Part shown: in pieces, positions 34,530-42,849 of the stretch | How the letters are laid out: the number at the start of each line of letters is the position of its first letter | How positions within the stretch are numbered: the stretch's first letter is position 1 | Assembly (NCBI GenBank): GCA_043381765.1 | Contig: JBHJMP010000846.1 | Location: forward strand, 1-44,062 | Length of the DNA stretch: 44,062 nucleotides | Reading direction: 5' to 3' | Source of the DNA: Collodictyon triciliatum | Taxonomy: Eukaryota | Made by a program: the position numbers and the translations under genes | Notes under the pieces: generated by a model | Told to the model about the DNA's origin: nothing | The model's database searches: none | Seen by the model: the letters and a program-made list of their open reading frames with translations, nothing else

Positions 34530-35654
34530 ATGAAAAGTGCTTCCAAAAAACCCTTGAGTCTCGATGAAGCACGGGTTGTAGTTATGCTCAACAGCATCCA
34601 AAACTTCCTCAAAAGCCAGCGACATTCGCTTTTGCGTCAACAACGTTCGTTCGGCTGGCTTTGGAAAAATTCTATGGTATCCCAAATCGTTAAGACAGAT
34701 GTACCAAAAACGAAGAGTTATACAGATGTCATTCATCTTCAGTTGCCCCGAGTATTGGATATGTCGAATGGCGCAGCATTCGATCGTGTCGTTGTTTACC
34801 GAGGACACCAATTGATATCACGAGACCCTTCATCCATAAACACGCCTTTGAAGGTTATCGGTCGGAGCGGAGACGGCTGTTTGGAATTCAACTACCCAGA
34901 CGGAATTGCAGTTCATCCAAAAACAGGACACATATATGTTGTTGACCATTACAACGACCGCGTGCAAATCCTGACTCCAGACCTTGAGTTTGTGGCAACT
35001 TATGGAAGAAATGGCTCTAATCCTGGCGAGTTCAAGAAGCCTTATGGCATCTCGATTTCGTGCGATGGGACGCGTATTGTTGTAGTGGATTCATTGCAAC
35101 ACCGAGCACAACTATTTGACGGTTCGTTCAATGTCATTTGCGTTATCGGCTCGCGAGGGAGACAACCAGGCAATTTTGGCCTTCCATTCAACGTGGACTT
35201 TGACCAAGATGGATTCTTTTACATCTCAGAATACAACAACATCAGAATACAAAAGTTTTCTAATGACGGAGACTTTGTAATGTCCACAGAAGCGAAGCCC
35301 ATCCCTTACAATGTTGCATATAGAGATGGTCTTTGTGTGAGCTCTGCAGGGCTTGTGTGCTCGTTGGGATGGAACTCAACCGACATCATGCTCTTTGACA
35401 GTGACTGCAACTACAAACGCTCGATTACTGTGAAGGCAACGTCTGCAAACGGATACAACTCCAACAAAATCATTCGCGGACCGAACGGAGGCTTTGTGGT
35501 TTCCTCCTATGCCCTCGGCGAAGTCCTGTTCTACACCGCGGACGGAACTTTGCTGCACACGCTTCAGCATTTGCACCCCAGTGGCATTGCGTTTGGACTT
35601 GACGAGCGCTTCTATGTTGCAAACTGGTCTGATATGACAGTTTCCGTATACTGA
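34530..35654 (+). CDS. NHL-repeat beta-propeller protein (may have additional upstream exons)
   Basis: FNYPDGIAV...IYVVDHYNDRVQIL, GSNPGEFKKPYGISI...VVDSLQHRAQLFD and GNFGLPFNVDFD are NHL repeats. An AG after a pyrimidine tract just upstream allows a 5' extension. Confidence 0.88.
   Translation: MKSASKKPLSLDEARVVVMLNSIQNFLKSQRHSLLRQQRSFGWLWKNSMVSQIVKTDVPKTKSYTDVIHLQLPRVLDMSNGAAFDRVVVYRGHQLISRDPSSINTPLKVIGRSGDGCLEFNYPDGIAVHPKTGHIYVVDHYNDRVQILTPDLEFVATYGRNGSNPGEFKKPYGISISCDGTRIVVVDSLQHRAQLFDGSFNVICVIGSRGRQPGNFGLPFNVDFDQDGFFYISEYNNIRIQKFSNDGDFVMSTEAKPIPYNVAYRDGLCVSSAGLVCSLGWNSTDIMLFDSDCNYKRSITVKATSANGYNSNKIIRGPNGGFVVSSYALGEVLFYTADGTLLHTLQHLHPSGIAFGLDERFYVANWSDMTVSVY

Positions 35655-35695: not shown

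Positions 35696-35697
<2 letters not shown>

Positions 35698-35776
<79 letters not shown>
35698..35776. repeat. (TAA)n microsatellite at the host/viral-element junction
   Basis: About 26 units, directly visible. Confidence 0.95.
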
Positions 35777-35818
35777 TGATATTATATTTATCTATATAGT
35801 TAGATAAATATAATATCA
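35777..35818. repeat. Perfect 18-bp inverted repeat (hairpin) at putative left terminus
   Basis: TGATATTATATTTATCTA - tatagt - TAGATAAATATAATATCA. Confidence 0.9.
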
Positions 35819-35900: not shown

Positions 35901-35960
35901 CTTTGCGGAATCTTCTGGAATCTTCTGGAGCCTTCTAGAATATTGCGGAATATTCCAGAT
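35901..35960 (+). promoter_or_regulatory. Heat-shock-element-like array (six 10-bp nnTTCnnGAA units) upstream of integrase
   Basis: ctTTGcgGAA tcTTCtgGAA tcTTCtgGAG ccTTCtaGAA taTTGcgGAA taTTCcaGAT, ending 20 nt before the ATG. Confidence 0.55.
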
Positions 35961-35980: not shown

Positions 35981-37240
35981 ATGACCGATAAACAAACTCT
36001 CAAAAAATCCTTATGGGATGATATGCTCGATAAATTATTCAACAAGACACCCATCCATACCAATTCAGTCGAGGCCTTGTATGTTGCAGCCAAGCCATAT
36101 AGCATACCACACACCTATGTCAGAGACTGGCTAGCCAAGCAACCAGACTGGCAAGTAATGCACAAGAAGCAACCCAAGCGCAATACTCCCACTGTTGTAC
36201 GATATAAGCCTGGATACCTGCAGATGGACTTTGTTGATATCACTGACTTGAATTCATTTAAGCACACACACCTTCTCAATTTTGTAGACGTATACACCCG
36301 CCAAGCCTTTTCATTCCCTACTGTAGATAGATCTCAAAAGAGTGTCATCGATGCAATCAGAAAATTAATTGAGGTCTATCCCGTTGTGAATGTCCTTCAA
36401 AGTGACAATGCCCCTGAGTTCAACGACAAGGAAAATAAAAAGAAAGAAGGCAAACCCATCACCGAGTTTCTCAAAGCCAATAACATCAGACAAGTCTTTT
36501 CAACCATTGCCACGCCTACCGCCAATGCATACGTCGAACGATTCAATGGCACAATCAAACGTATACTCTATGGCTACAAATCTAAAACTGGCAAGGACCC
36601 TCTACCCGACATTGATTCATTCGTTGAACACTTTAATAAAACTAAAAACGCAGACACCAAAGTTGAACCTGCCCTTGCTATGCATCCTGACAAACAAGAA
36701 ACCCTCGAGGAAAATACAAAGATGTATCACGTCAAAAAAAATAAAGCGTCCCAAGCTGAACTCAGTGTTGGTGACAATGTCAGAGTCTCACTAGAAAAAT
36801 CTGTAATGAATGCAGAACTCAAAAACGAAATCAGAGACAAGTTCAAAGGTAATAAGCCCAAGTGGTCTTATGACCTTTACAAAGTTAAAAAAATATTCAA
36901 ACCCAAAGATGATTCATTCTCTACTACCTTCTATCAAGTAGACGGCGGCAAGGACTGGAAATGGCTTGACGGAAAAAAATTCCAACGACACGATTTATTA
37001 TTGGTCGACCAAGAAACTAAACCCGAAAGGTATGTACCTAAATACCAGCTCGTCAAGTTTACAGATTTATACAAAGAACCTGTCGGCGCTGGACGACCAG
37101 CCAAACAAAATGTCAAGCCAAAGAAAAACCCTGTTGGACGCCCACGCAAACCCGTCGACCCCAATGCACCTACCCCTGTTAAAAGACCTAGAGGCAGACC
37201 ACGCAAAGTTATTATTGAGGAGCCTGATGATGAGGACTAG
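35981..37240 (+). CDS. Retroviral-type (rve/DDE) integrase of Polinton/Maverick type with C-terminal AT-hooks
   Basis: LQMDFVD / LQSDNAPEF / NAYVERFNGTIKR supply the D,D,E triad. LSVGDNVRV...PKWSYDLYKV is the Polinton integrase C-terminal motif. GRPAK, GRPRKP and RPRGRPRK are AT-hook motifs. Confidence 0.93.
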   Translation: MTDKQTLKKSLWDDMLDKLFNKTPIHTNSVEALYVAAKPYSIPHTYVRDWLAKQPDWQVMHKKQPKRNTPTVVRYKPGYLQMDFVDITDLNSFKHTHLLNFVDVYTRQAFSFPTVDRSQKSVIDAIRKLIEVYPVVNVLQSDNAPEFNDKENKKKEGKPITEFLKANNIRQVFSTIATPTANAYVERFNGTIKRILYGYKSKTGKDPLPDIDSFVEHFNKTKNADTKVEPALAMHPDKQETLEENTKMYHVKKNKASQAELSVGDNVRVSLEKSVMNAELKNEIRDKFKGNKPKWSYDLYKVKKIFKPKDDSFSTTFYQVDGGKDWKWLDGKKFQRHDLLLVDQETKPERYVPKYQLVKFTDLYKEPVGAGRPAKQNVKPKKNPVGRPRKPVDPNAPTPVKRPRGRPRKVIIEEPDDED

Positions 37241-37800: not shown

Positions 37801-37873
37801 TCCTACAATATATTTTTTTCAAATAAACGCAATTTAAAAACAACTTGACATAATAACTTAATTACAATCTAAA

Positions 37874-38167
37874 ATGAATAATCAATTTACACGTGAAGAA
37901 TATCAACAATTCAATATATTCTGTGTCCGCCTATTTCAGATGGATCTTGAAACCATCAAGTTATTAGTAGCTTCTGGTCACAAATTAAAAGCTCGCAACT
38001 CCGCCTATTACAAAAAAAGATTAATAAAAAAAAAGGCCACCCCTATGTTTATATTACCAGACGCGCAGCCCCCTCAGATTGACTACACAGAATTTGAACA
38101 TCGATTCCCCAAAGTTTACTCAACCGGAATGTCCTCTAGCGAATCTCTCTCCGACAAATCAAAATAA
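37874..38167 (+). CDS. Small basic hypothetical protein (97 aa)
   Basis: Fills the space between neighbours; A-rich start context (aaaATG); shares an upstream TTAAAAACA motif with the replicase gene. Confidence 0.6.
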   Translation: MNNQFTREEYQQFNIFCVRLFQMDLETIKLLVASGHKLKARNSAYYKKRLIKKKATPMFILPDAQPPQIDYTEFEHRFPKVYSTGMSSSESLSDKSK

Positions 38168-38192
38168 ATTGTGGCAATCACCACCATTCATT

Positions 38193-40475
38193 TTATTCTT
38201 TTGTGCGTGCTCTCTTGGCGCTGCTCACAATCTCATCAGTCAGAAAGTAACACTTCATATTGCTGTTATCCATCATCATCTTGCGAACCTCTTTATAGTC
38301 GCATTCATACTTACCACGCTTAACAGTAAATGGGTAGGTAGATTTGAAATTAGTCCAAATTGGATTATGAACAAATGACTTGAATTCTAACACTTTGTGA
38401 TTCGGTAATCTCTTTGCGCTAAACGTTTTGTAAATGTCATATATCTCATCAATGTGATGGCTAAAAGGAGTTGCGTCCTTTTCTTTATGCCATAGGTATT
38501 TACTTTTAAACACCAGCTCATAAGTGTCCCAGATGTAATCATTCCATTCAACAAACAAAAACTTTATAAATTGTTCAATGGGATGCATACTAGTTTCTGC
38601 CAACACTTCACAAGTCTCACTTTTGGGAAAGTCATTAAAGTTAAAATTGGCATCATATTCATTCATCAACACTTTTGTAAATATCTTGACAAACTCTTCA
38701 TTGTTTGTTTCCTTTGTTAACTGTGATATCTCTTGTGGAGTCAGTCTATACTCTTTCACATCAAATATAGGAAAGCGTCTCATATTGTCCCTTTCAAACA
38801 CAATACCGATTTCTTTGTTGGTGTTCAGAATATAATTAACTGTGTTTCGTACAGGATACGGATTGTGGTACAACATACGCACGTGATTCTCGTCACGGTC
38901 CACAGCTTCCTTAATGTCTCCTTGTAAACTCTTTGTTTTTGAGGTATCACTTTCTTCCAATATACACAACAGCTTATTAGCAATGTTCATATTCTTTTCT
39001 CCAAACACCTCAGACAAACCGGAATGTGTGCTGCCGTATTGCTTGCCTAGAACTTGTTGCACAAACATCCTATGAAAGAAAGCAGTCTTACCTGTCCCTC
39101 CTTTGTTGTTGCGGAATATCATCATCTTGCCAATTCGATAATTGGGTTGATACAGAATTCTCGCTAAGTATTGAATTACATATTTCTCAGATACAGGATT
39201 ACCCGCACATAGATACTGAGACAATTGCTTATAGGTCATACTACTCTTCCAAATAGTATAATCGGCTTCGCTCACAGTTTTAGCAATGTTAGTACAATAG
39301 CCTAGCCAGTCTTCCCATTGTTGTCCGTCAAATTCTGGAAAATACTTTTCAAATGCAAAGCCCTTGAAATAGTTGTAGGCCTTGGGGTTGCGTTCGTTTG
39401 TAAATCCGTCATAAGGTGAAAAGTCAAAGTACATAAAGCGTCGTTCTTTTGGTAAGAATAACTGCACAGTATCCCAAAATTTATCTCCAAATTGTTGACA
39501 ATAGGATGCGGCAGACTTTATATGTTCGGGCTTACGAGTAGGTTCATCTGGGTACTCGACAAACAAATTGCCAAGTAACATAAAATGAGTCTTTGCAAAT
39601 TCTTCTAATGGTGTGTCCGCTTTGATAGTAATTTCATTAGGCTCAAGTGTTGATTCAATAGGTTTAAAGCTAAATTCTACTTTGTACCCTGTCTGCTCTT
39701 CAATGTATCTTGTCAATTCGATATTCTTTTCATCTGGGTGACAATACTGTTCCTTGTTAACAAACAGCCCATCAAAATTGTACATCCCAATATCAACATT
39801 AGCTTCTTGTAATACACTAATCACTTTCTGCATTATTTTTGTTTCTTCAGTTTGCAACAAATATGCCAGACAGCTATATATGCGATTGTCGTGCTCAGAC
39901 AAACATTCGTCTGACTCTCGGAATTTCAACTTGTGCCATTCAGGATATTTTGAATATGCCATAGCAGCCAACATTTGCATTTCACTTTGCAGTTTCATAC
40001 TAAACTTGTCATTACTAACAAGTGCTTGTGTTTTGCCACTAAACGCTAACATCAAATATCTTTTCTTGACTTCCTTGCGAGTCTTATGTGTTAACTCCAT
40101 TGCCCTTTCAATTATACTATCACGGTTCTTTACATATTCCTCGATAGCTTCGTGATCTATATCCCATTTTTTTGCCAAACCCAAAGACAGAGCATAATGG
40201 CAGTTGACAATATCAAGGCTAGCATATTTATCCTTCAATAGATAATTACGAATGGGTTTATCAAGCATTCCCACTGAAATGCCACAAGGGTAGAATCTGC
40301 CAACTTTGAATTTTCTTAATTGCTTAGCATAGTCGTATTTAACTTTTAAGCCGTCCTTATCCATTTGCTTTTTGATAACACTTAGCTTCCCTTTTTCCTT
40401 TTTGCTGATTATTTCTTCTGGCTGCTTCAGCAGCTTTTTAATTGTAATGGGGTCGATTGATTCAACTAGTTCCAT
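38193..40475 (-). CDS. PolA-like (TV-Pol) primase-polymerase fused to SF3/D5-like helicase
   Basis: N-terminal half: GRFY..., motif A SLDIVNCH, motif B RKEVKKRYLMLAFSG, LQTEE, motif C NFDGLFV. C-terminal half: YLARILYQP, Walker A GGTGKT, Walker B LCILEE, motif C NYILNTN, then MRRF. Confidence 0.85.
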   Translation of the reverse strand: MELVESIDPITIKKLLKQPEEIISKKEKGKLSVIKKQMDKDGLKVKYDYAKQLRKFKVGRFYPCGISVGMLDKPIRNYLLKDKYASLDIVNCHYALSLGLAKKWDIDHEAIEEYVKNRDSIIERAMELTHKTRKEVKKRYLMLAFSGKTQALVSNDKFSMKLQSEMQMLAAMAYSKYPEWHKLKFRESDECLSEHDNRIYSCLAYLLQTEETKIMQKVISVLQEANVDIGMYNFDGLFVNKEQYCHPDEKNIELTRYIEEQTGYKVEFSFKPIESTLEPNEITIKADTPLEEFAKTHFMLLGNLFVEYPDEPTRKPEHIKSAASYCQQFGDKFWDTVQLFLPKERRFMYFDFSPYDGFTNERNPKAYNYFKGFAFEKYFPEFDGQQWEDWLGYCTNIAKTVSEADYTIWKSSMTYKQLSQYLCAGNPVSEKYVIQYLARILYQPNYRIGKMMIFRNNKGGTGKTAFFHRMFVQQVLGKQYGSTHSGLSEVFGEKNMNIANKLLCILEESDTSKTKSLQGDIKEAVDRDENHVRMLYHNPYPVRNTVNYILNTNKEIGIVFERDNMRRFPIFDVKEYRLTPQEISQLTKETNNEEFVKIFTKVLMNEYDANFNFNDFPKSETCEVLAETSMHPIEQFIKFLFVEWNDYIWDTYELVFKSKYLWHKEKDATPFSHHIDEIYDIYKTFSAKRLPNHKVLEFKSFVHNPIWTNFKSTYPFTVKRGKYECDYKEVRKMMMDNSNMKCYFLTDEIVSSAKRARTKE

Positions 40476-40559
40476 TTTCTTTGTTCTTACTATCCTATAG
40501 ACAAATGTTTTTAAGCCAGTAATTACAAAATAACAGGGGTTGTGTGTTCAAGTCCTCTT

Positions 40560-40820
40560 ATAATGGGGAGGGTTGAGTATTGGTTTAATTACTCCTTACT
40601 CTTTTATATGCCATTTTACTATGCACAAGTATATACACATCCTTACATACACAAGTCTATAATTATAAAGTTCATAGGATACCCTACCCCATTTTAAGGG
40701 GGAAAAAGTGGTAGGGTATCCTATAAAAAGTTTTCAAGGGGGATGTGACTTGGGGTTATGCAACCCTCCCCATTATTCAAAAATAACTGTAACAGGGCCA
40801 CGAAGAATAGAGTAAGGAGT
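40560..40820. other. Structured intergenic element: four inverted-repeat pairs, one crossing (candidate replication origin or ncRNA)
   Basis: A 40560-75/A' 40761-76 (16 bp); B 40591-602/B' 40809-20 (12 bp); C 40674-88/C' 40710-24 (15 bp); D 40626-30+40636-42/D' 40741-52. Confidence 0.7.
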
Positions 40821-40959
40821 TTTCTTTTTCCTGGCTCCGCTCACCCTTTTCTTTTTTGTAAAGAGCAAGTCAAGAAACATCTGGGCCTCCTCAAAAGTCA
40901 AAAATACGTGTTGTTCAGAATTAGGAGTATATAGTCGTAACATATATTAAGACTAGATA

Positions 40960-41682
40960 TTAATAAAGGATTTCTTCCGTAAAGTTTTTGTAGGCCTTGA
41001 TTTTACGAGGCGTCAAGAGATTTATGTAAAGAAAGCAATACGGATCAGCTGTCGCAAAGTCAAACAACTCGTCAAATACTTTCTGATCGAGATTTGTAAT
41101 TTCGTTTAGAGATTCCCGTTCGTGTTTGTTGTCTGTATAAAACGCAACCAGGTGACTTGCATTTTGCCGGATTTTCGGATTAAACAAACGAATCGCGTGC
41201 CCGACAATAATCATAGAAAGCCTGTAGTGTCGATGCTGGAGCATTTTCTTTAGTAGCACTTTACTAGGACGCTCAAATGAAGTCCCCAGATCGTCAACCA
41301 CCAATAAATAAGCATTGTCTTTAAAATCCGGGTCCTGAGTTATATCGGCTGTTATTGCTTCAAATATCTGTTCGTTAAAGTCGTCGTACATTCGACTCTT
41401 GTGAAACCTTACACCGTCATAGGAAGAGTCGTGTATTTCCCCACCTGAAATATTAGAAGAGCAAAAATATACTTTGTCGAATATCTTGTGATACATTTCC
41501 TTCTTTCCTAGCAAATTACTAATCAAGGTTGTTTTACCTGAAGCAACTTTTGCGCTTATCAACATCCAAAAAGGTCTATCTGATTTTGCATCCGGGAGTA
41601 TTTCTAAAACTACTTCACGCTTGTTTTTCTTTACAGTCTTCAACGGGGCAACATTAACGTCACTTACTTTTTTACTTTCCAT
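40960..41682 (-). CDS. A32/FtsK-HerA family genome-packaging ATPase
   Basis: Walker A variant ISAKVASGKTT, KVYFCS, Walker B YLLVVDDL, RHYRLSMIIVGH, and PKIRQNASH (arginine-finger region). Confidence 0.92.
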   Translation of the reverse strand: MESKKVSDVNVAPLKTVKKNKREVVLEILPDAKSDRPFWMLISAKVASGKTTLISNLLGKKEMYHKIFDKVYFCSSNISGGEIHDSSYDGVRFHKSRMYDDFNEQIFEAITADITQDPDFKDNAYLLVVDDLGTSFERPSKVLLKKMLQHRHYRLSMIIVGHAIRLFNPKIRQNASHLVAFYTDNKHERESLNEITNLDQKVFDELFDFATADPYCFLYINLLTPRKIKAYKNFTEEILY

Positions 41683-41862: not shown

Positions 41863-42812
41863 NNNNNNNNNNNNNNNNNNNNNNNNNNNNNNNNNNNNNN
41901 NNNNNNNNNNNNNNNNNNNNNNNNNNNNNNNNNNNNNNNNNNNNNNNNNNNNNNNNNNNNNNNNNNNNNNNNNNNNNNNNNNNNNNNNNNNNNNNNNNNN
42001 NNNNNNNNNNNNNNNNNNNNNNNNNNNNNNNNNNNNNNNNNNNNNNNNNNNNNNNNNNNNNNNNNNNNNNNNNNNNNNNNNNNNNNNNNNNNNNNNNNNN
42101 NNNNNNNNNNNNNNNNNNNNNNNNNNNNNNNNNNNNNNNNNNNNNNNNNNNNNNNNNNNNNNNNNNNNNNNNNNNNNNNNNNNNNNNNNNNNNNNNNNNN
42201 NNNNNNNNNNNNNNNNNNNNNNNNNNNNNNNNNNNNNNNNNNNNNNNNNNNNNNNNNNNNNNNNNNNNNNNNNNNNNNNNNNNNNNNNNNNNNNNNNNNN
42301 NNNNNNNNNNNNNNNNNNNNNNNNNNNNNNNNNNNNNNNNNNNNNNNNNNNNNNNNNNNNNNNNNNNNNNNNNNNNNNNNNNNNNNNNNNNNNNNNNNNN
42401 NNNNNNNNNNNNNNNNNNNNNNNNNNNNNNNNNNNNNNNNNNNNNNNNNNNNNNNNNNNNNNNNNNNNNNNNNNNNNNNNNNNNNNNNNNNNNNNNNNNN
42501 NNNNNNNNNNNNNNNNNNNNNNNNNNNNNNNNNNNNNNNNNNNNNNNNNNNNNNNNNNNNNNNNNNNNNNNNNNNNNNNNNNNNNNNNNNNNNNNNNNNN
42601 NNNNNNNNNNNNNNNNNNNNNNNNNNNNNNNNNNNNNNNNNNNNNNNNNNNNNNNNNNNNNNNNNNNNNNNNNNNNNNNNNNNNNNNNNNNNNNNNNNNN
42701 NNNNNNNNNNNNNNNNNNNNNNNNNNNNNNNNNNNNNNNNNNNNNNNNNNNNNNNNNNNNNNNNNNNNNNNNNNNNNNNNNNNNNNNNNNNNNNNNNNNN
42801 NNNNNNNNNNNN
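41863..42812. other. Assembly gap (N run) inside the viral element
   Basis: N bases. Confidence 1.
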
Positions 42813-42849
42813 GCGGATTATTCCAGACATTTAATTTCTTGCCTAGAAT

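What the first reader, a model, noticed from the sequence alone, without database searches (positions are those of the whole stretch)
40560..40820. Pseudoknot-like nest of inverted repeats upstream of the primase-helicase gene
Seen: order A-B-D-C-C'-D'-A'-B'. A is ATAATGGGGAGGGTTG/CAACCCTCCCCATTAT (16 bp perfect). C is ATAGGATACCCTACC/GGTAGGGTATCCTAT (15 bp perfect). B is ACTCCTTACTCT/AGAGTAAGGAGT (12 bp perfect). D is CAAGT+CACATCC/GGATGTG-ACTTG. A, D and C nest, while B/B' crosses A/A'. This is the largest non-coding stretch in the sequenced part of an otherwise compact element. Inference: an internal replication origin (ssDNA fold or paired binding sites for the TV-Pol-helicase), or a structured ncRNA/5' leader controlling the replicase.
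Basis: partly seen in the sequence, partly recalled or inferred. Interest (0 to 1): 0.8.

Follow-up and report, generated by a model that had tools for sequence, protein, structure and literature searches.

The report
Candidate replication origin beside viral replicase
A tight cluster of inverted DNA repeats just upstream of the replication gene of a small virus-like element integrated in a eukaryotic genome is real, and it most likely marks the site where the element starts copying its DNA, although nobody has tested this.

Summary
The repeats exist as described. A (16/16), C (15/15, extendable to 25 nt) and B (12/12) are exact, and D is a split 5+7 pair. In 5000 shuffles a perfect inverted repeat of 15 nt or more arose 3 times.

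Only 297 nt (40476-40772) is non-coding. B' lies inside a conserved 56-codon gene and A' overlaps its stop codon.

The element is polinton-like. It has an rve integrase, an A32-like ATPase, and a replicase whose N-terminal half folds like family A DNA polymerases and whose C-terminal half is a D5-like SF3 helicase.

It is not a MITE, not an Rfam RNA, and not a conserved pseudoknot. The closest relative with DNA in hand keeps hairpin C and box A but lacks A' and B'.

Arms B and C carry a GTARGG core. The same kind of box forms unique arrays in both orientations next to the helicase-replicase genes of distant virophage-like genomes.

Best reading, at about 0.5: a replication-origin-type cluster of binding sites. 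Main rival: a transcript-end hairpin plus a promoter.

The parts
40476..40772 (-). Non-coding control region between the 56-codon gene and the replicase gene. It is the largest gap in the visible part of the element.
   Evidence: ORF map. No ORF of 50 aa or more in the matching L001 gap 1244-1536. The core 40564-40738 is 91.7% identical to L001 (155 of 169 ungapped columns). The flanks are 73% and 68% identical (Fisher p 1.4e-5).
40671..40727 (.). Hairpin/palindrome C. Arms are 40671-40695 and 40703-40727, the perfect core is 40674-40688 / 40710-40724, and the loop is 7 nt. Each arm carries a GTAGGG box (40682-40687 on -, 40711-40716 on +).
   Evidence: RNA on the - strand -30.2 kcal/mol, z -5.3; on the + strand -26.5, z -4.2; rank 1 of 2442 windows. 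In L001, 12 Watson-Crick plus 3 G-U of the 15 core pairs are kept.
40560..40575 (+). Box A (ATAATGGGGAGGGTTG), the copy nearest the replicase gene. It is G-rich and related to the C arm.
   Evidence: A-like boxes appear at this place in L001 and in the environmental contigs that reach it. Similarity of A to the C arm scores 10; this was reached by 136 of 3000 Markov shuffles and 10 of 3000 mononucleotide shuffles.
40761..40776 (-). Box A', a perfect inverted copy of A. It starts at the stop codon of the 56-codon gene.
   Evidence: Absent from L001. Homology with two environmental variants breaks at 40773-40777.
40591..40602 (-). Arm B, carrying a GTAAGG box at 40594-40599. It lies next to a TATAAAAG motif (40601-40608, - strand).
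   Evidence: One 7586-nt environmental contig appears to lack about 40581-40618.
40809..40820 (+). Arm B', carrying a GTAAGG box at 40812-40817. It lies inside the coding sequence of the 56-codon gene.
   Evidence: Altered in an RNA-library contig (40816 G>A, 40820 T>A).
40626..40642 (+). Arm D (CAAGT + CACATCC with a 5-nt bulge). A further GTAAGG box follows directly at 40641-40646 (- strand). 40640-40649 reads TCCTTACATA, and its last 9 bases match the repeated box of L007 (ACCTTACATA).
40741..40752 (+). Arm D' (GGATGTG + ACTTG).
   Evidence: L001 keeps 9 Watson-Crick plus 1 G-U of 12 pairs. Not significant on its own.
40576..40675 (.). A/T-rich tract (20-32% G+C per 25 nt) between box A and hairpin C. 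It holds three TGTGYAT repeats on the - strand (40621, 40633, 40647).
40773..40943 (-). 56-codon gene for a small protein with a lysine-rich centre. It holds B' and ends within A'.
   Evidence: Net indel of -6 in contig record 16.
38193..40475 (-). 760-aa replicase: an N-terminal family A polymerase-like domain (TVpol type) plus a D5-like SF3 helicase.
40960..41682 (-). A32-like packaging ATPase gene, part of the more divergent module.
   Evidence: PF04665, E 5.3e-7. 4-fold sites are 63% diverged from L001, against 13.9% in the replicase.
38157..38195 (-). 15-bp sense-strand hairpin starting at the replicase stop codon. It bears on the rival reading (hairpins as transcript-end signals).
   Evidence: z -3.05; identical in L001; the antisense strand folds much worse.
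35981..37240 (+). rve-type integrase gene of the same module.
   Evidence: PF00665, E 1.4e-11.

Best explanation
The 'nest' is a cluster of short sequence boxes in both orientations, not one folded molecule. It lies in the 297-nt control region directly upstream of the PolA-like/SF3-helicase replicase gene of an integrated polinton-like virus.

Its parts are:
- a central palindrome C made of two inverted GTAGGG boxes;
- further GTAAGG boxes, in arms B and B' and next to D;
- a related G-rich box present as the perfect inverted pair A/A';
- a 100-nt A/T-rich tract.

I read this as the element's replication-origin-type site. The replicase, or a partner protein, would bind the boxes and the palindrome, and the A/T-rich tract would melt for helicase loading and DNA synthesis. 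The palindrome may act as a stem-loop, as in the pRN1 plasmid origin.

Shown here: the repeats, their statistics, the conserved island, the replicase fold, and the parallel box arrays in distant relatives. Inferred: protein binding, origin function, and which protein binds.

Hairpin C may also serve as the transcript-end signal of the upstream genes. The two roles do not exclude each other.
For: 1. A and C are far beyond chance, and C is the strongest local fold of the element part.

2. The island 40564-40738 is 91.7% identical to relative L001. Its immediate flanks are 73% and 68% identical (Fisher p 1.4e-5). 4-fold sites of the replicase gene are 13.9% diverged overall and 20.9% in the adjacent 576 nt. 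Other gaps between genes in this element are 16-73 nt, so promoters and terminators here need little room.

3. The island stays with the replicase module in a mosaic. Identity to L001 drops from about 90% to about 65% at 40739-40760, inside the gap.

4. GTARGG, a motif taken from the repeated boxes of L006, L007 and L009, occurs 5 times within 40594-40817, inside arms B, C, C', B' and next to D. There are 18 in the other ~42 kb. Five in 300 nt was reached in 0 of 300 Markov shuffles.

5. Nine distant loci with DUF5906 replicases were found (21-23% identity; 8 independent).
- L007, L009 and L006 have 8-11 boxes in both orientations, plus A/T-rich palindromes and a two-box hairpin, just upstream of the gene.
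- L011/L012 and L013 have such arrays just downstream.
- L010 has one inverted pair.
- L005 and L008 have none.

6. In whole records of 19-27 kb the boxes are confined to that one region: 8 of 8, 8 of 8, 11 of 13, and at least 4 of 5. That fits a unique cis site rather than promoters.

7. Experimental precedent. The origin of plasmid pRN1, whose replication protein is recalled to be a primase-polymerase/SF3-helicase fusion, is a roughly 100-nt stem-loop next to its gene, and the stem must be intact (PMC4234260, abstract read).
Against: - L001 has an 88% identical replicase but keeps only 2 canonical GTARGG boxes (the C arms). It lacks A' and B'. Most boxes are therefore dispensable or specific to this lineage.
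- One environmental contig seems to lack the B/TATA block.
- The three arm pairs are each perfect but differ from one another. That pattern fits base pairing or recent copying better than classic identical iterons.
- I chose the GTARGG motif after seeing the sequences. The distant arrays are alike in kind and core, not alignable.
- Apart from the whole-record counts, I ran no control for how often other gaps in such A/T-rich genomes hold repeat arrays.
- Published ideas place PLV origins in the terminal repeats (PMC11296320, passages).
- Contigs from one RNA library stop inside this gap, and a second sense-strand hairpin follows the replicase stop codon. Both fit a purely transcriptional role.
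- The element is incomplete in the window (N run 41863-42812, window end), so uniqueness of the boxes in this element is unproven.
Confidence: 0.5

Rival explanations
1. Transcription-unit boundary only. Hairpin C (with D) is the 3'-end formation signal of the ATPase/56-codon-gene transcript, like the 'hairpin rule' that giant viruses and their virophages use. The A/T-rich block with TATA-like motifs is the promoter of the replicase gene, and box A lies in its leader. There is no origin function.
For: - C lies 46 nt past the stop codon of the upstream gene.
- All three changed pairs of C in L001 are G-U on the sense strand, and the sense strand folds 3-4 kcal/mol better in both sequences.
- A second sense-strand hairpin starts at the replicase stop codon and is identical in L001.
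- In one metatranscriptome run, a 1340-nt contig ends 43 nt past the small gene's stop. A 2411-nt contig spans about the whole replicase ORF plus 142 nt upstream.
- TATAAAAG lies at 40601-40608, with TATAAAGG in L001.
- Reviews state that virophages use the giant virus's late promoter and the hairpin rule (PMC11814242 and PMC7031253, passages).
Against: - The other genes of this element manage with gaps of 16-73 nt. A 175-nt island conserved better than the proximal 88 nt is more than a promoter and terminator need.
- This reading does not explain the perfect 16-nt pair A/A'. It also does not explain why the same kind of box forms arrays of 8-11 copies found only once per genome in distant relatives, in some cases downstream of the replicase gene.
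- The RNA evidence is one run, a divergent variant, and contigs only. An RNA library can also hold DNA.
- One variant lacks the TATA block.
Confidence: 0.25
2. Another cis-acting DNA site, or none. It could be a packaging signal read by the neighbouring A32-like ATPase. It could be a recombination hot spot or scar at the joint between the morphogenesis and replication modules, with A' copied from A by a templated event and having no function of its own.
For: - The joint between differently diverged modules lies inside the gap, at 40739-40760 against L001.
- Homology with two other variants breaks at 40773-40777, the outer edge of A'.
- A preprint reports frequent re-association of replication and morphogenesis modules in these viruses (10.64898/2026.10.13.758929, passages).
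- A' has sharp edges and perfect identity, yet it is missing in L001.
Against: - A scar would not give a conserved island or a box family shared with distant genomes.
- No repeat links this gap to the element's left end. The best local score was 8.5, against a null median of 10.
- Nothing here points specifically to packaging.
Confidence: 0.15
3. A structured RNA: a pseudoknotted 5' leader or non-coding RNA that controls the replicase through pairings A/A' and B/B' crossing each other.
For: - The - strand RNA of 40550-40830 folds at -82.5 kcal/mol, z -4.44.
- Helix energies are A -24, B -14.3, C -29.1 kcal/mol.
- C keeps its pairing through G-U changes on the sense strand.
Against: - No Rfam family reaches its gathering score. 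The four weak matches score 14.8-25.4 bits against thresholds of 35.6-230.
- In L001, A keeps 6 of 16 pairs and B keeps 8 of 12 split by two gaps. The matching 281 nt of L001 folds at z -1.45.
- B' is coding sequence.
- The RNA contigs suggest that A'/B' and A/B lie on different transcripts.
- B alone is at the window's background rate.
Confidence: 0.05
4. A nested miniature inverted-repeat transposon or foldback element inserted into the gap.
For: 16-bp perfect terminal-like repeats bound a 217-bp unit, with an inner palindrome.
Against: - There is no target-site duplication. The flanks read ...CTCTT | and | TCAAA....
- L001 keeps the interior in place but lacks A'. Other variants keep sub-blocks. 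No contig skips the unit (no joints).
- There is no other copy of the arms or of the 485-nt region in the 44-kb window.
- The interior is the conserved part.
Confidence: 0.03

Closest known systems
Origin of the Sulfolobus plasmid pRN1 (replication protein ORF904, recalled as a primase-polymerase plus SF3 helicase); PMC4234260, abstract read
   Same: A polymerase/primase-SF3 helicase fusion gene has, right beside it, a non-coding region whose long stem-loop is the functional origin. A small gene (orf56) sits next to the replicase gene. The authors saw similar stem-loops beside similar replicases in phages.
   Different: - In pRN1 the stem-loop lies downstream of the gene, and its requirement was shown by mutation. 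Here it lies upstream and is untested.
- The polymerase domain here is PolA-like, not a primase-polymerase.
- Here there are several box pairs, two of them crossing, and one arm is in coding sequence.
- The host is a eukaryote.
Origins of small DNA viruses with SF3 helicase initiators (SV40 site II, papillomavirus E1 binding site) and the phage P4 ori/crr octamers bound by its alpha primase-helicase. All recalled, not checked in a call.
   Same: Short initiator-binding boxes are arranged as inverted pairs or palindromes next to an A/T-rich tract, within the control region beside the initiator gene.
   Different: No sequence relation. The boxes here fall into three pairwise-perfect classes rather than one repeated consensus. 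Binding was not tested.
Box arrays beside DUF5906 replicase genes in virophage-like IMG/VR contigs found here (L006, L007, L009, L011/L012, L013)
   Same: - The same gene neighbour (DUF5906 SF3 helicase replicase).
- One non-coding region per genome.
- Boxes in both orientations, A/T-rich palindromes, and a hairpin made of two inverted boxes.
- Shared cores: window GGTAGGGTA and ATGTAAGGA; L009 TGTAGGGTA; L007 TGTAAGGTA.
   Different: - Those arrays have 5-11 near-identical copies. The window has 5 cores plus the A pair.
- L007 and L009 replicases carry a primase (PriCT_2) N-terminus, not PolA.
- In L011-L013 the array is downstream of the gene.
- The regions cannot be aligned, and function is unknown there too.
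'Hairpin rule' for transcript 3' ends in Mimiviridae and their virophages (PMC11814242 and PMC7031253, passages; original paper not held)
   Same: A palindromic hairpin on the sense strand sits shortly after a stop codon. A second one sits at the replicase stop codon.
   Different: C is much stronger than the other hairpin and is built from the repeated boxes. Only 2 gene ends with free space could be examined. Dependence on a giant virus is unknown.
'End module' hypothesis for polinton-like viruses (PMC11296320, passages)
   Same: Replicase and integrase genes are grouped at one end of the element, and inverted repeats are proposed as the origin recognised by the primase-helicase.
   Different: That proposal places the origin in the terminal inverted repeats. 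Here the repeats lie at the inner border of the module, about 4.7 kb from the element's left end. They share nothing with that end.

Membership tests
Initiator-adjacent replication origin with repeated boxes/palindrome | Several copies of a short box, in both orientations, clustered in one non-coding region | tested here: met
   5 GTARGG cores lie within 40594-40817, against 18 in the other ~42 kb. Five in 300 nt occurred in 0 of 300 Markov shuffles. In addition there is the A/A' pair. The motif was chosen after inspection.
Initiator-adjacent replication origin with repeated boxes/palindrome | The box cluster is unique in the genome | tested here: inconclusive
   In relatives' whole records: 8 of 8, 8 of 8, 11 of 13, and at least 4 of 5 boxes lie in the one region. 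In this element, 5 of 7 cores in the visible 6.2 kb lie there, but the element runs into an N gap and the window end.
Initiator-adjacent replication origin with repeated boxes/palindrome | Adjacent A/T-rich tract, and position next to the initiator gene | tested here: met
   40576-40675 is 20-32% G+C. The cluster lies 85-345 nt upstream of the replicase start codon.
Initiator-adjacent replication origin with repeated boxes/palindrome | Boxes conserved among close relatives that share the initiator | tested here: inconclusive
   L001 (88% identical replicase) keeps hairpin C and an A-like box. It has only 2 canonical cores and lacks A' and B'. A-like boxes are seen in every variant that reaches that place.
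Initiator-adjacent replication origin with repeated boxes/palindrome | Bound by the initiator, and DNA synthesis starts there | not testable with these tools
   Needs binding and replication assays.
pRN1-type stem-loop origin | A long stem-loop beside a polymerase/primase-SF3 helicase gene, kept in relatives | tested here: inconclusive
   C is a 57-nt hairpin, and the nest A-D-C spans 217 nt. In L001, C keeps 15 of 15 pairs (3 as G-U), D keeps 10 of 12, and A keeps 6 of 16.
Mimiviridae-type hairpin-rule 3'-end signal | Sense-strand palindromic hairpin shortly after the stop codon of genes | tested here: met
   C begins 46 nt after the 56-codon gene's stop. A 15-bp hairpin begins at the replicase stop codon. 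That is 2 of the 2 gene ends with free downstream space. The convergent integrase/187-aa ends show no significant fold.
Mimiviridae-type hairpin-rule 3'-end signal | Transcripts end and are polyadenylated at the hairpin | tested here: inconclusive
   The only evidence is contigs of one RNA library from a divergent variant. One ends 43 nt past the small gene's stop. Contigs cannot show true ends.
MITE / foldback transposon | Terminal inverted repeats flanked by a target-site duplication | tested here: not met
   The repeats are present (A/A'), but the flanks CTCTT / TCAAA share no duplication.
MITE / foldback transposon | Present or absent as a whole unit, with dispersed copies | tested here: not met
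   L001 keeps the interior without A'. No contig skips the unit. There is no second copy in the window. The host genome is not held.
Known structured RNA (Rfam) / conserved pseudoknot | Match to a curated family, or crossing helices kept by covariation | tested here: not met
   0 matches at gathering score. 4 weak matches lie far below threshold. A and B pairings are not kept in L001.
TVpol-S3H replicase of polinton-like viruses/virophages (the neighbouring gene) | N-terminal family A polymerase-like fold fused to a D5-like SF3 helicase | tested here: met
   - AF2 model: residues 1-283 have pLDDT 80-94.
- Foldseek against PDB: 50 hits at E<=0.001, all PolA.
- BFVD: Zamilon and Qinghai Lake virophage replication proteins, E 1e-12 to 1e-13.
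- DUF5906, E 4.3e-12.
- The helicase half of the model is poor (pLDDT below 50).

The most novel reading that the evidence does not exclude
The repeat nest is the replication origin of a PolA-like/SF3-helicase polinton-like virus. GTARGG-type box clusters with a two-box hairpin would mark the origins of a wide range of virophage and polinton-like genomes whose replicases share the DUF5906 helicase, whether that helicase is fused to a primase or to a PolA-like domain. Origin and replicase would then form one portable module, and its border, inside this very gap, would be where replication and morphogenesis modules are swapped. I found no paper that describes origins or iterons for these viruses. 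Searches: 'virophage'+'iteron' returned 1 unrelated paper; 'polinton-like'+'origin of replication' returned only the terminal-repeat hypothesis.
Probability: 0.35. Interest if true: 0.7.

Novelty: new member of a known kind. Interest (0 to 1): 0.55.

Why it matters
Polinton-like viruses and virophages are abundant in lakes and seas and integrate into protist genomes. Where and how those with helicase-fusion replicases start DNA replication is unknown.

A defined 300-nt candidate site, with named boxes and parallel sites in complete virophage-like genomes, makes the question directly testable by binding assays, plasmid replication and initiation mapping.

It would also explain why replication modules move between these viruses as units. 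The cis site travels with its replicase, and the module joint lies at its edge.

Tried and rejected
- **MITE/foldback:** rejected.
- **Rfam:** nothing at gathering score. Four matches are far below threshold. No tRNA in the window.
- **Close relatives' DNA:**
  - Viral contigs gave none with the single protein, the close alignment, or a 29-nt core pattern.
  - Genome contigs gave none.
  - The phage collection gave only remote helicase hits and no DNA match.
  - A 17-nt box pattern gave two unrelated chance hits, L003 and L004.
  - L002 looks rearranged and is usable only for about 45 nt upstream of the start codon.
- **ACTTG/CAAGT as a box:** 4 copies, not above the shuffle maximum. D as a helix is not significant alone.
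- **Repeats bracketing the replication module** (left end against this gap): none above null.
- **Bacterial-type promoter/terminator scan:** nothing above the shuffle mean.
- **Tandem repeats:** none.
- **RNA-RNA duplex** between the upstream 3' part and the putative leader: the output was dominated by huge interior loops, so I did not use it.
- **Sequence searches of the replicase alignment, the 404-aa ORF and the 187-aa ORF against PDB, NCBIfam and PHROGs:** no useful names beyond those cited.
- **Protein atlas:** only unnamed viral clusters. No capsid gene was confirmed in the window.
- **Sequencing runs:** 20 of 24 listed runs hold part of the stretch and none holds half. Parts without cover in the four laid runs are not counted as evidence. 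No joints or inversions were seen.
- **Broad 25-sequence alignment:** too diverse for a locus search.
- **Not available:** earlier findings, own genome, cluster members, encoding contigs. Supplementary tables of the papers were not opened.
Full report
**Setting**

The window is a eukaryotic scaffold with four N runs. Host-type genes fill the first 35 kb: leucine-rich repeat proteins, a polycystin channel, WD40 and a coatomer fragment.

From about 35.78 kb to the window end lies part of a small virus-like element.
- rve integrase, 35981-37240 (+).
- A 187-aa gene on the - strand.
- A 760-aa replicase, 38193-40475 (-).
- A 56-codon gene, 40773-40943 (-).
- An A32-like packaging ATPase, 40960-41682 (-).

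- The C-terminal half is DUF5906 / D5-like SF3 helicase.
- In an AlphaFold model built from 10 relatives, the N-terminal 283 residues are confident.
- Foldseek gives 50 PDB hits at E<=0.001, all family A DNA polymerases.
- Virophage replication proteins (Zamilon, Qinghai Lake virophage) appear among the best viral models.
- The helicase half of the model is poor.

No capsid gene was confirmed in the visible part. Near-identical pieces of the region occur in freshwater and estuary metagenomes: 20 of 24 listed runs from 13 studies hold part of it, and none holds half.

**The observation**

A is 16 of 16, B is 12 of 12, and C is 15 of 15, extendable to 25-nt arms with a 7-nt loop. D is a 5+7 pair with a 5-nt bulge.

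In 5000 dinucleotide shuffles of 40476-40960, the longest perfect inverted repeat reached 12 nt or more in 79 shuffles, 15 or more in 3, and 16 or more in 1. In the whole window there are six perfect inverted repeats that are not low-complexity, are 12 nt or longer and span 400 nt or less. Three of them are here. Hairpin C is the strongest 60-nt fold of the element part on both strands. So A and C are certainly not chance. B alone sits at the window's background rate, and D is not significant by itself.

Two corrections are needed.
- The non-coding gap is 297 nt (40476-40772).
- 40773-40943 is a real small gene. L001 has a 57-codon ORF at the same place with the same pattern of residues. An environmental contig differs from the window by indels that sum to -6.

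B' therefore lies in coding sequence, and A' starts at that gene's stop codon.

**What it is not**

- *Not a MITE.* There is no target-site duplication and no second copy in the window. The relative L001 keeps the interior in place while lacking A'. No contig skips the unit.
- *Not a known RNA.* Rfam gives nothing at gathering score, and the four weak matches are far below threshold.
- *Not a conserved pseudoknot.* L001 has an 88% identical replicase. There A keeps 6 of 16 pairs, and B keeps 8 of 12 split by two gaps. The matching 281 nt of L001 folds no better than shuffles (z -1.45).

**Close comparison**

L001 is a 6179-nt metagenome contig with the same gene order. Identity along the alignment is mosaic.
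- Replicase to integrase: about 90-95% nucleotide identity, with 4-fold sites 13.9% diverged (27 of 194).
- ATPase: 4-fold sites 63% diverged.
- 56-codon gene: 66% identical.

The switch lies inside the gap, at about 40739-40760. Within the gap, an island from hairpin C to box A (40564-40738) is 91.7% identical (155 of 169 ungapped columns). The 88 nt next to the start codon are 73% identical, and the A'/D' end is 68% identical (Fisher p 1.4e-5 for island against flanks). Against 4-fold sites, p is 0.099 overall and 0.026 for the adjacent 576 nt.

Hairpin C keeps all 15 core pairs in L001, three of them as G-U on the sense strand.

Contigs of four runs add further detail.
- One contig is nearly identical over 40586-41100 (6 differences, including one in C and one in D').
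- One 7586-nt contig aligns only over 40619-40777. An A-like box abuts 40619, so the B/TATA block seems absent there. Homology ends at the outer edge of A'.
- One RNA-library contig carries the small gene but turns unlike the window at 40773.

An A-like box is seen in every variant that reaches that place.

**Distant comparison: the turning point**

A profile search found a large family: 138 representatives at E<=1e-30. A closer 11-sequence alignment then fetched 9 loci from viral contigs at 21-23% identity. L011 and L012 are near-identical, so 8 loci are independent. All 7 replicase ORFs tested carry DUF5906. L007, L008 and L009 also carry a primase PriCT_2 domain.

The non-coding DNA next to these genes looks as follows.
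- **L007.** The 360-nt gap upstream of the gene holds ACCTTACAT four times forward and four times inverted. The layout is three boxes, an A/T-rich palindrome, three inverted boxes, then a hairpin made of two inverted boxes. It is the best fold of the locus (rank 1 of 1124).
- **L009.** The 461-nt upstream gap holds about eight CCCTACA and three TGTAGGG, an A12/T12 palindrome and a two-box hairpin (rank 1 of 1128).
- **L006.** Eight TGTAAGGT lie just upstream of the inferred gene start. No intact ORF was found there.
- **L011/L012 and L013.** Arrays of other boxes, in both orientations, lie in the gap just downstream of the gene.
- **L010.** One inverted pair (AGGTAGGTAGTT).
- **L005 and L008.** None.

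Whole-record counts show the boxes are confined to that one region:
- 8 of 8 in a 27,138-nt record;
- 8 of 8 in a 24,070-nt record;
- 11 of 13 in a 25,038-nt record;
- at least 4 of 5 in a 19,197-nt record.

Back in the window, the motif GTARGG (taken from L006, L007 and L009) occurs 23 times in 44 kb, as expected by chance overall. But 5 of these lie within 40594-40817: inside B, next to D (where 9 of the 10 bases of TCCTTACATA match the L007 box), inside C, inside C', and inside B'. Five in 300 nt occurred in 0 of 300 Markov shuffles. A/A' is a T-less relative of the C arm; its similarity score of 10 was reached by 136 of 3000 Markov and 10 of 3000 simple shuffles.

The 'nest' is therefore best described as a cluster of one family of boxes in both orientations, around a palindrome and beside a 100-nt A/T-rich tract.

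**How it most likely works**

I read it as a replication-origin-type site (confidence 0.5). The boxes and the palindrome would be bound by the replicase or a partner. The A/T-rich tract would melt and the helicase would load.

What is shown: the repeats, the conserved island, its linkage to the replicase module, and the parallel unique arrays. What is inferred: binding and initiation.

The nearest tested precedent is plasmid pRN1, whose replication protein I recall to be a primase-polymerase/SF3-helicase fusion. Its origin is a roughly 100-nt stem-loop beside the gene, and the stem must be intact (PMC4234260, abstract).

Evidence against this reading:
- L001 has only two canonical boxes and lacks A' and B'.
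- The three pairs are each perfect yet differ from one another, which is not what classic iterons do.
- The motif was chosen after the fact.
- Published thinking puts the origins of these viruses in the terminal repeats (PMC11296320, passages).

**The main rival**

The main rival (0.25) is a plain transcription boundary.
- C lies 46 nt after a stop codon.
- Its changes in L001 are G-U on the sense strand.
- A second sense-strand hairpin begins at the replicase stop codon and is identical in L001.
- In one metatranscriptome, one contig ends 43 nt past the small gene. Another spans about the whole replicase ORF plus 142 nt upstream.
- Virophages are said to use the giant virus's late promoter and hairpin rule (PMC11814242 and PMC7031253, passages).
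- A related polinton-like virus has monocistronic genes with a giant-virus early promoter before its TVpol gene (preprint 10.1101/2022.07.28.501842, passages).

This rival does not explain the extra conserved DNA in an element whose other gaps are 16-73 nt. It also does not explain A/A', or the once-per-genome arrays in relatives. The two roles can coexist.

**What stays unexplained**

Why A and A' are identical over exactly 16 nt with sharp edges while A' is missing in L001. Also, why module joints fall at A's partner in two variants. A preprint reports frequent re-association of replication and morphogenesis modules in these viruses (10.64898/2026.10.13.758929, passages). The joint found here fits that picture, but no repeat links this gap to the element's left end.

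**Verdict**

The pseudoknot, RNA and MITE readings are not supported. A candidate origin, or at least a replicase-linked cis site, is supported by indirect comparative evidence. It is a new member of a known kind. Interest 0.55.

Noticed in passing
window 38157-38195 (- strand); L001 3815-3865: A 15-bp sense-strand hairpin starts exactly at the replicase stop codon and is identical in L001 (z -3.05). The opposite strand folds much worse. A second fold follows at 38095-38154.
   Followed up: partly
window 35697-35818: A (TAA)n run is followed by a perfect 18-bp A/T-rich hairpin (35777-35794 / 35801-35818, z -6.4). The L001 contig stops at this point. This is probably the left end of the element, or its junction with the host.
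   Followed up: partly
window 35914-35959 and 42813-42827; L001 6068-6095: A palindrome lies upstream of the integrase gene and is partly kept in L001. The motif GCGGA[AT]TATTCCAGA occurs upstream of both the integrase gene and the 404-aa ORF. It may be a shared promoter motif.
   Followed up: no
window 40518-40526 and about 37829-37837: TTAAAAACA lies about 45 nt upstream of the replicase start codon and about 37 nt upstream of the 97-aa ORF (37874). The block around it is kept in the window, L001 and L002.
   Followed up: no
window 40621-40653 (- strand): Three TGTGYAT repeats lie 12 and 14 nt apart in the best-conserved part of the gap. There are 17 others in the rest of the 44 kb.
   Followed up: partly
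window 38193-41682 against L001: Mosaic divergence. Replicase to integrase is about 90-95% identical, while the ATPase and the 56-codon gene are about 60-66% identical. There is a further variable patch inside the replicase N-terminal part (about 39971-40147, 65-75%).
   Followed up: partly
L002 1-150: The first ~150 nt of this contig are an internal fragment of the replicase gene, joined about 45 nt upstream of the start codon. It is either a rearranged copy or an assembly artefact.
   Followed up: no
L003 1350-1620: An unrelated 46.9-kb viral contig, hit by chance, has its own cluster of GGGTAGGGT-like repeats in both orientations.
   Followed up: no
L006 1490-3597: No intact replicase ORF of 80 aa or more is found under the standard code, although tblastn matches the helicase domain. 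This could mean frameshifts, errors or another genetic code.
   Followed up: no
window 34530-35654: A 374-aa NHL-repeat ORF lies directly left of the element's end. Its best NCBIfam match is a bacterial ScyF-type NHL protein (E 5e-33, below the cutoff). Whether it belongs to the host or the element is unclear.
   Followed up: no
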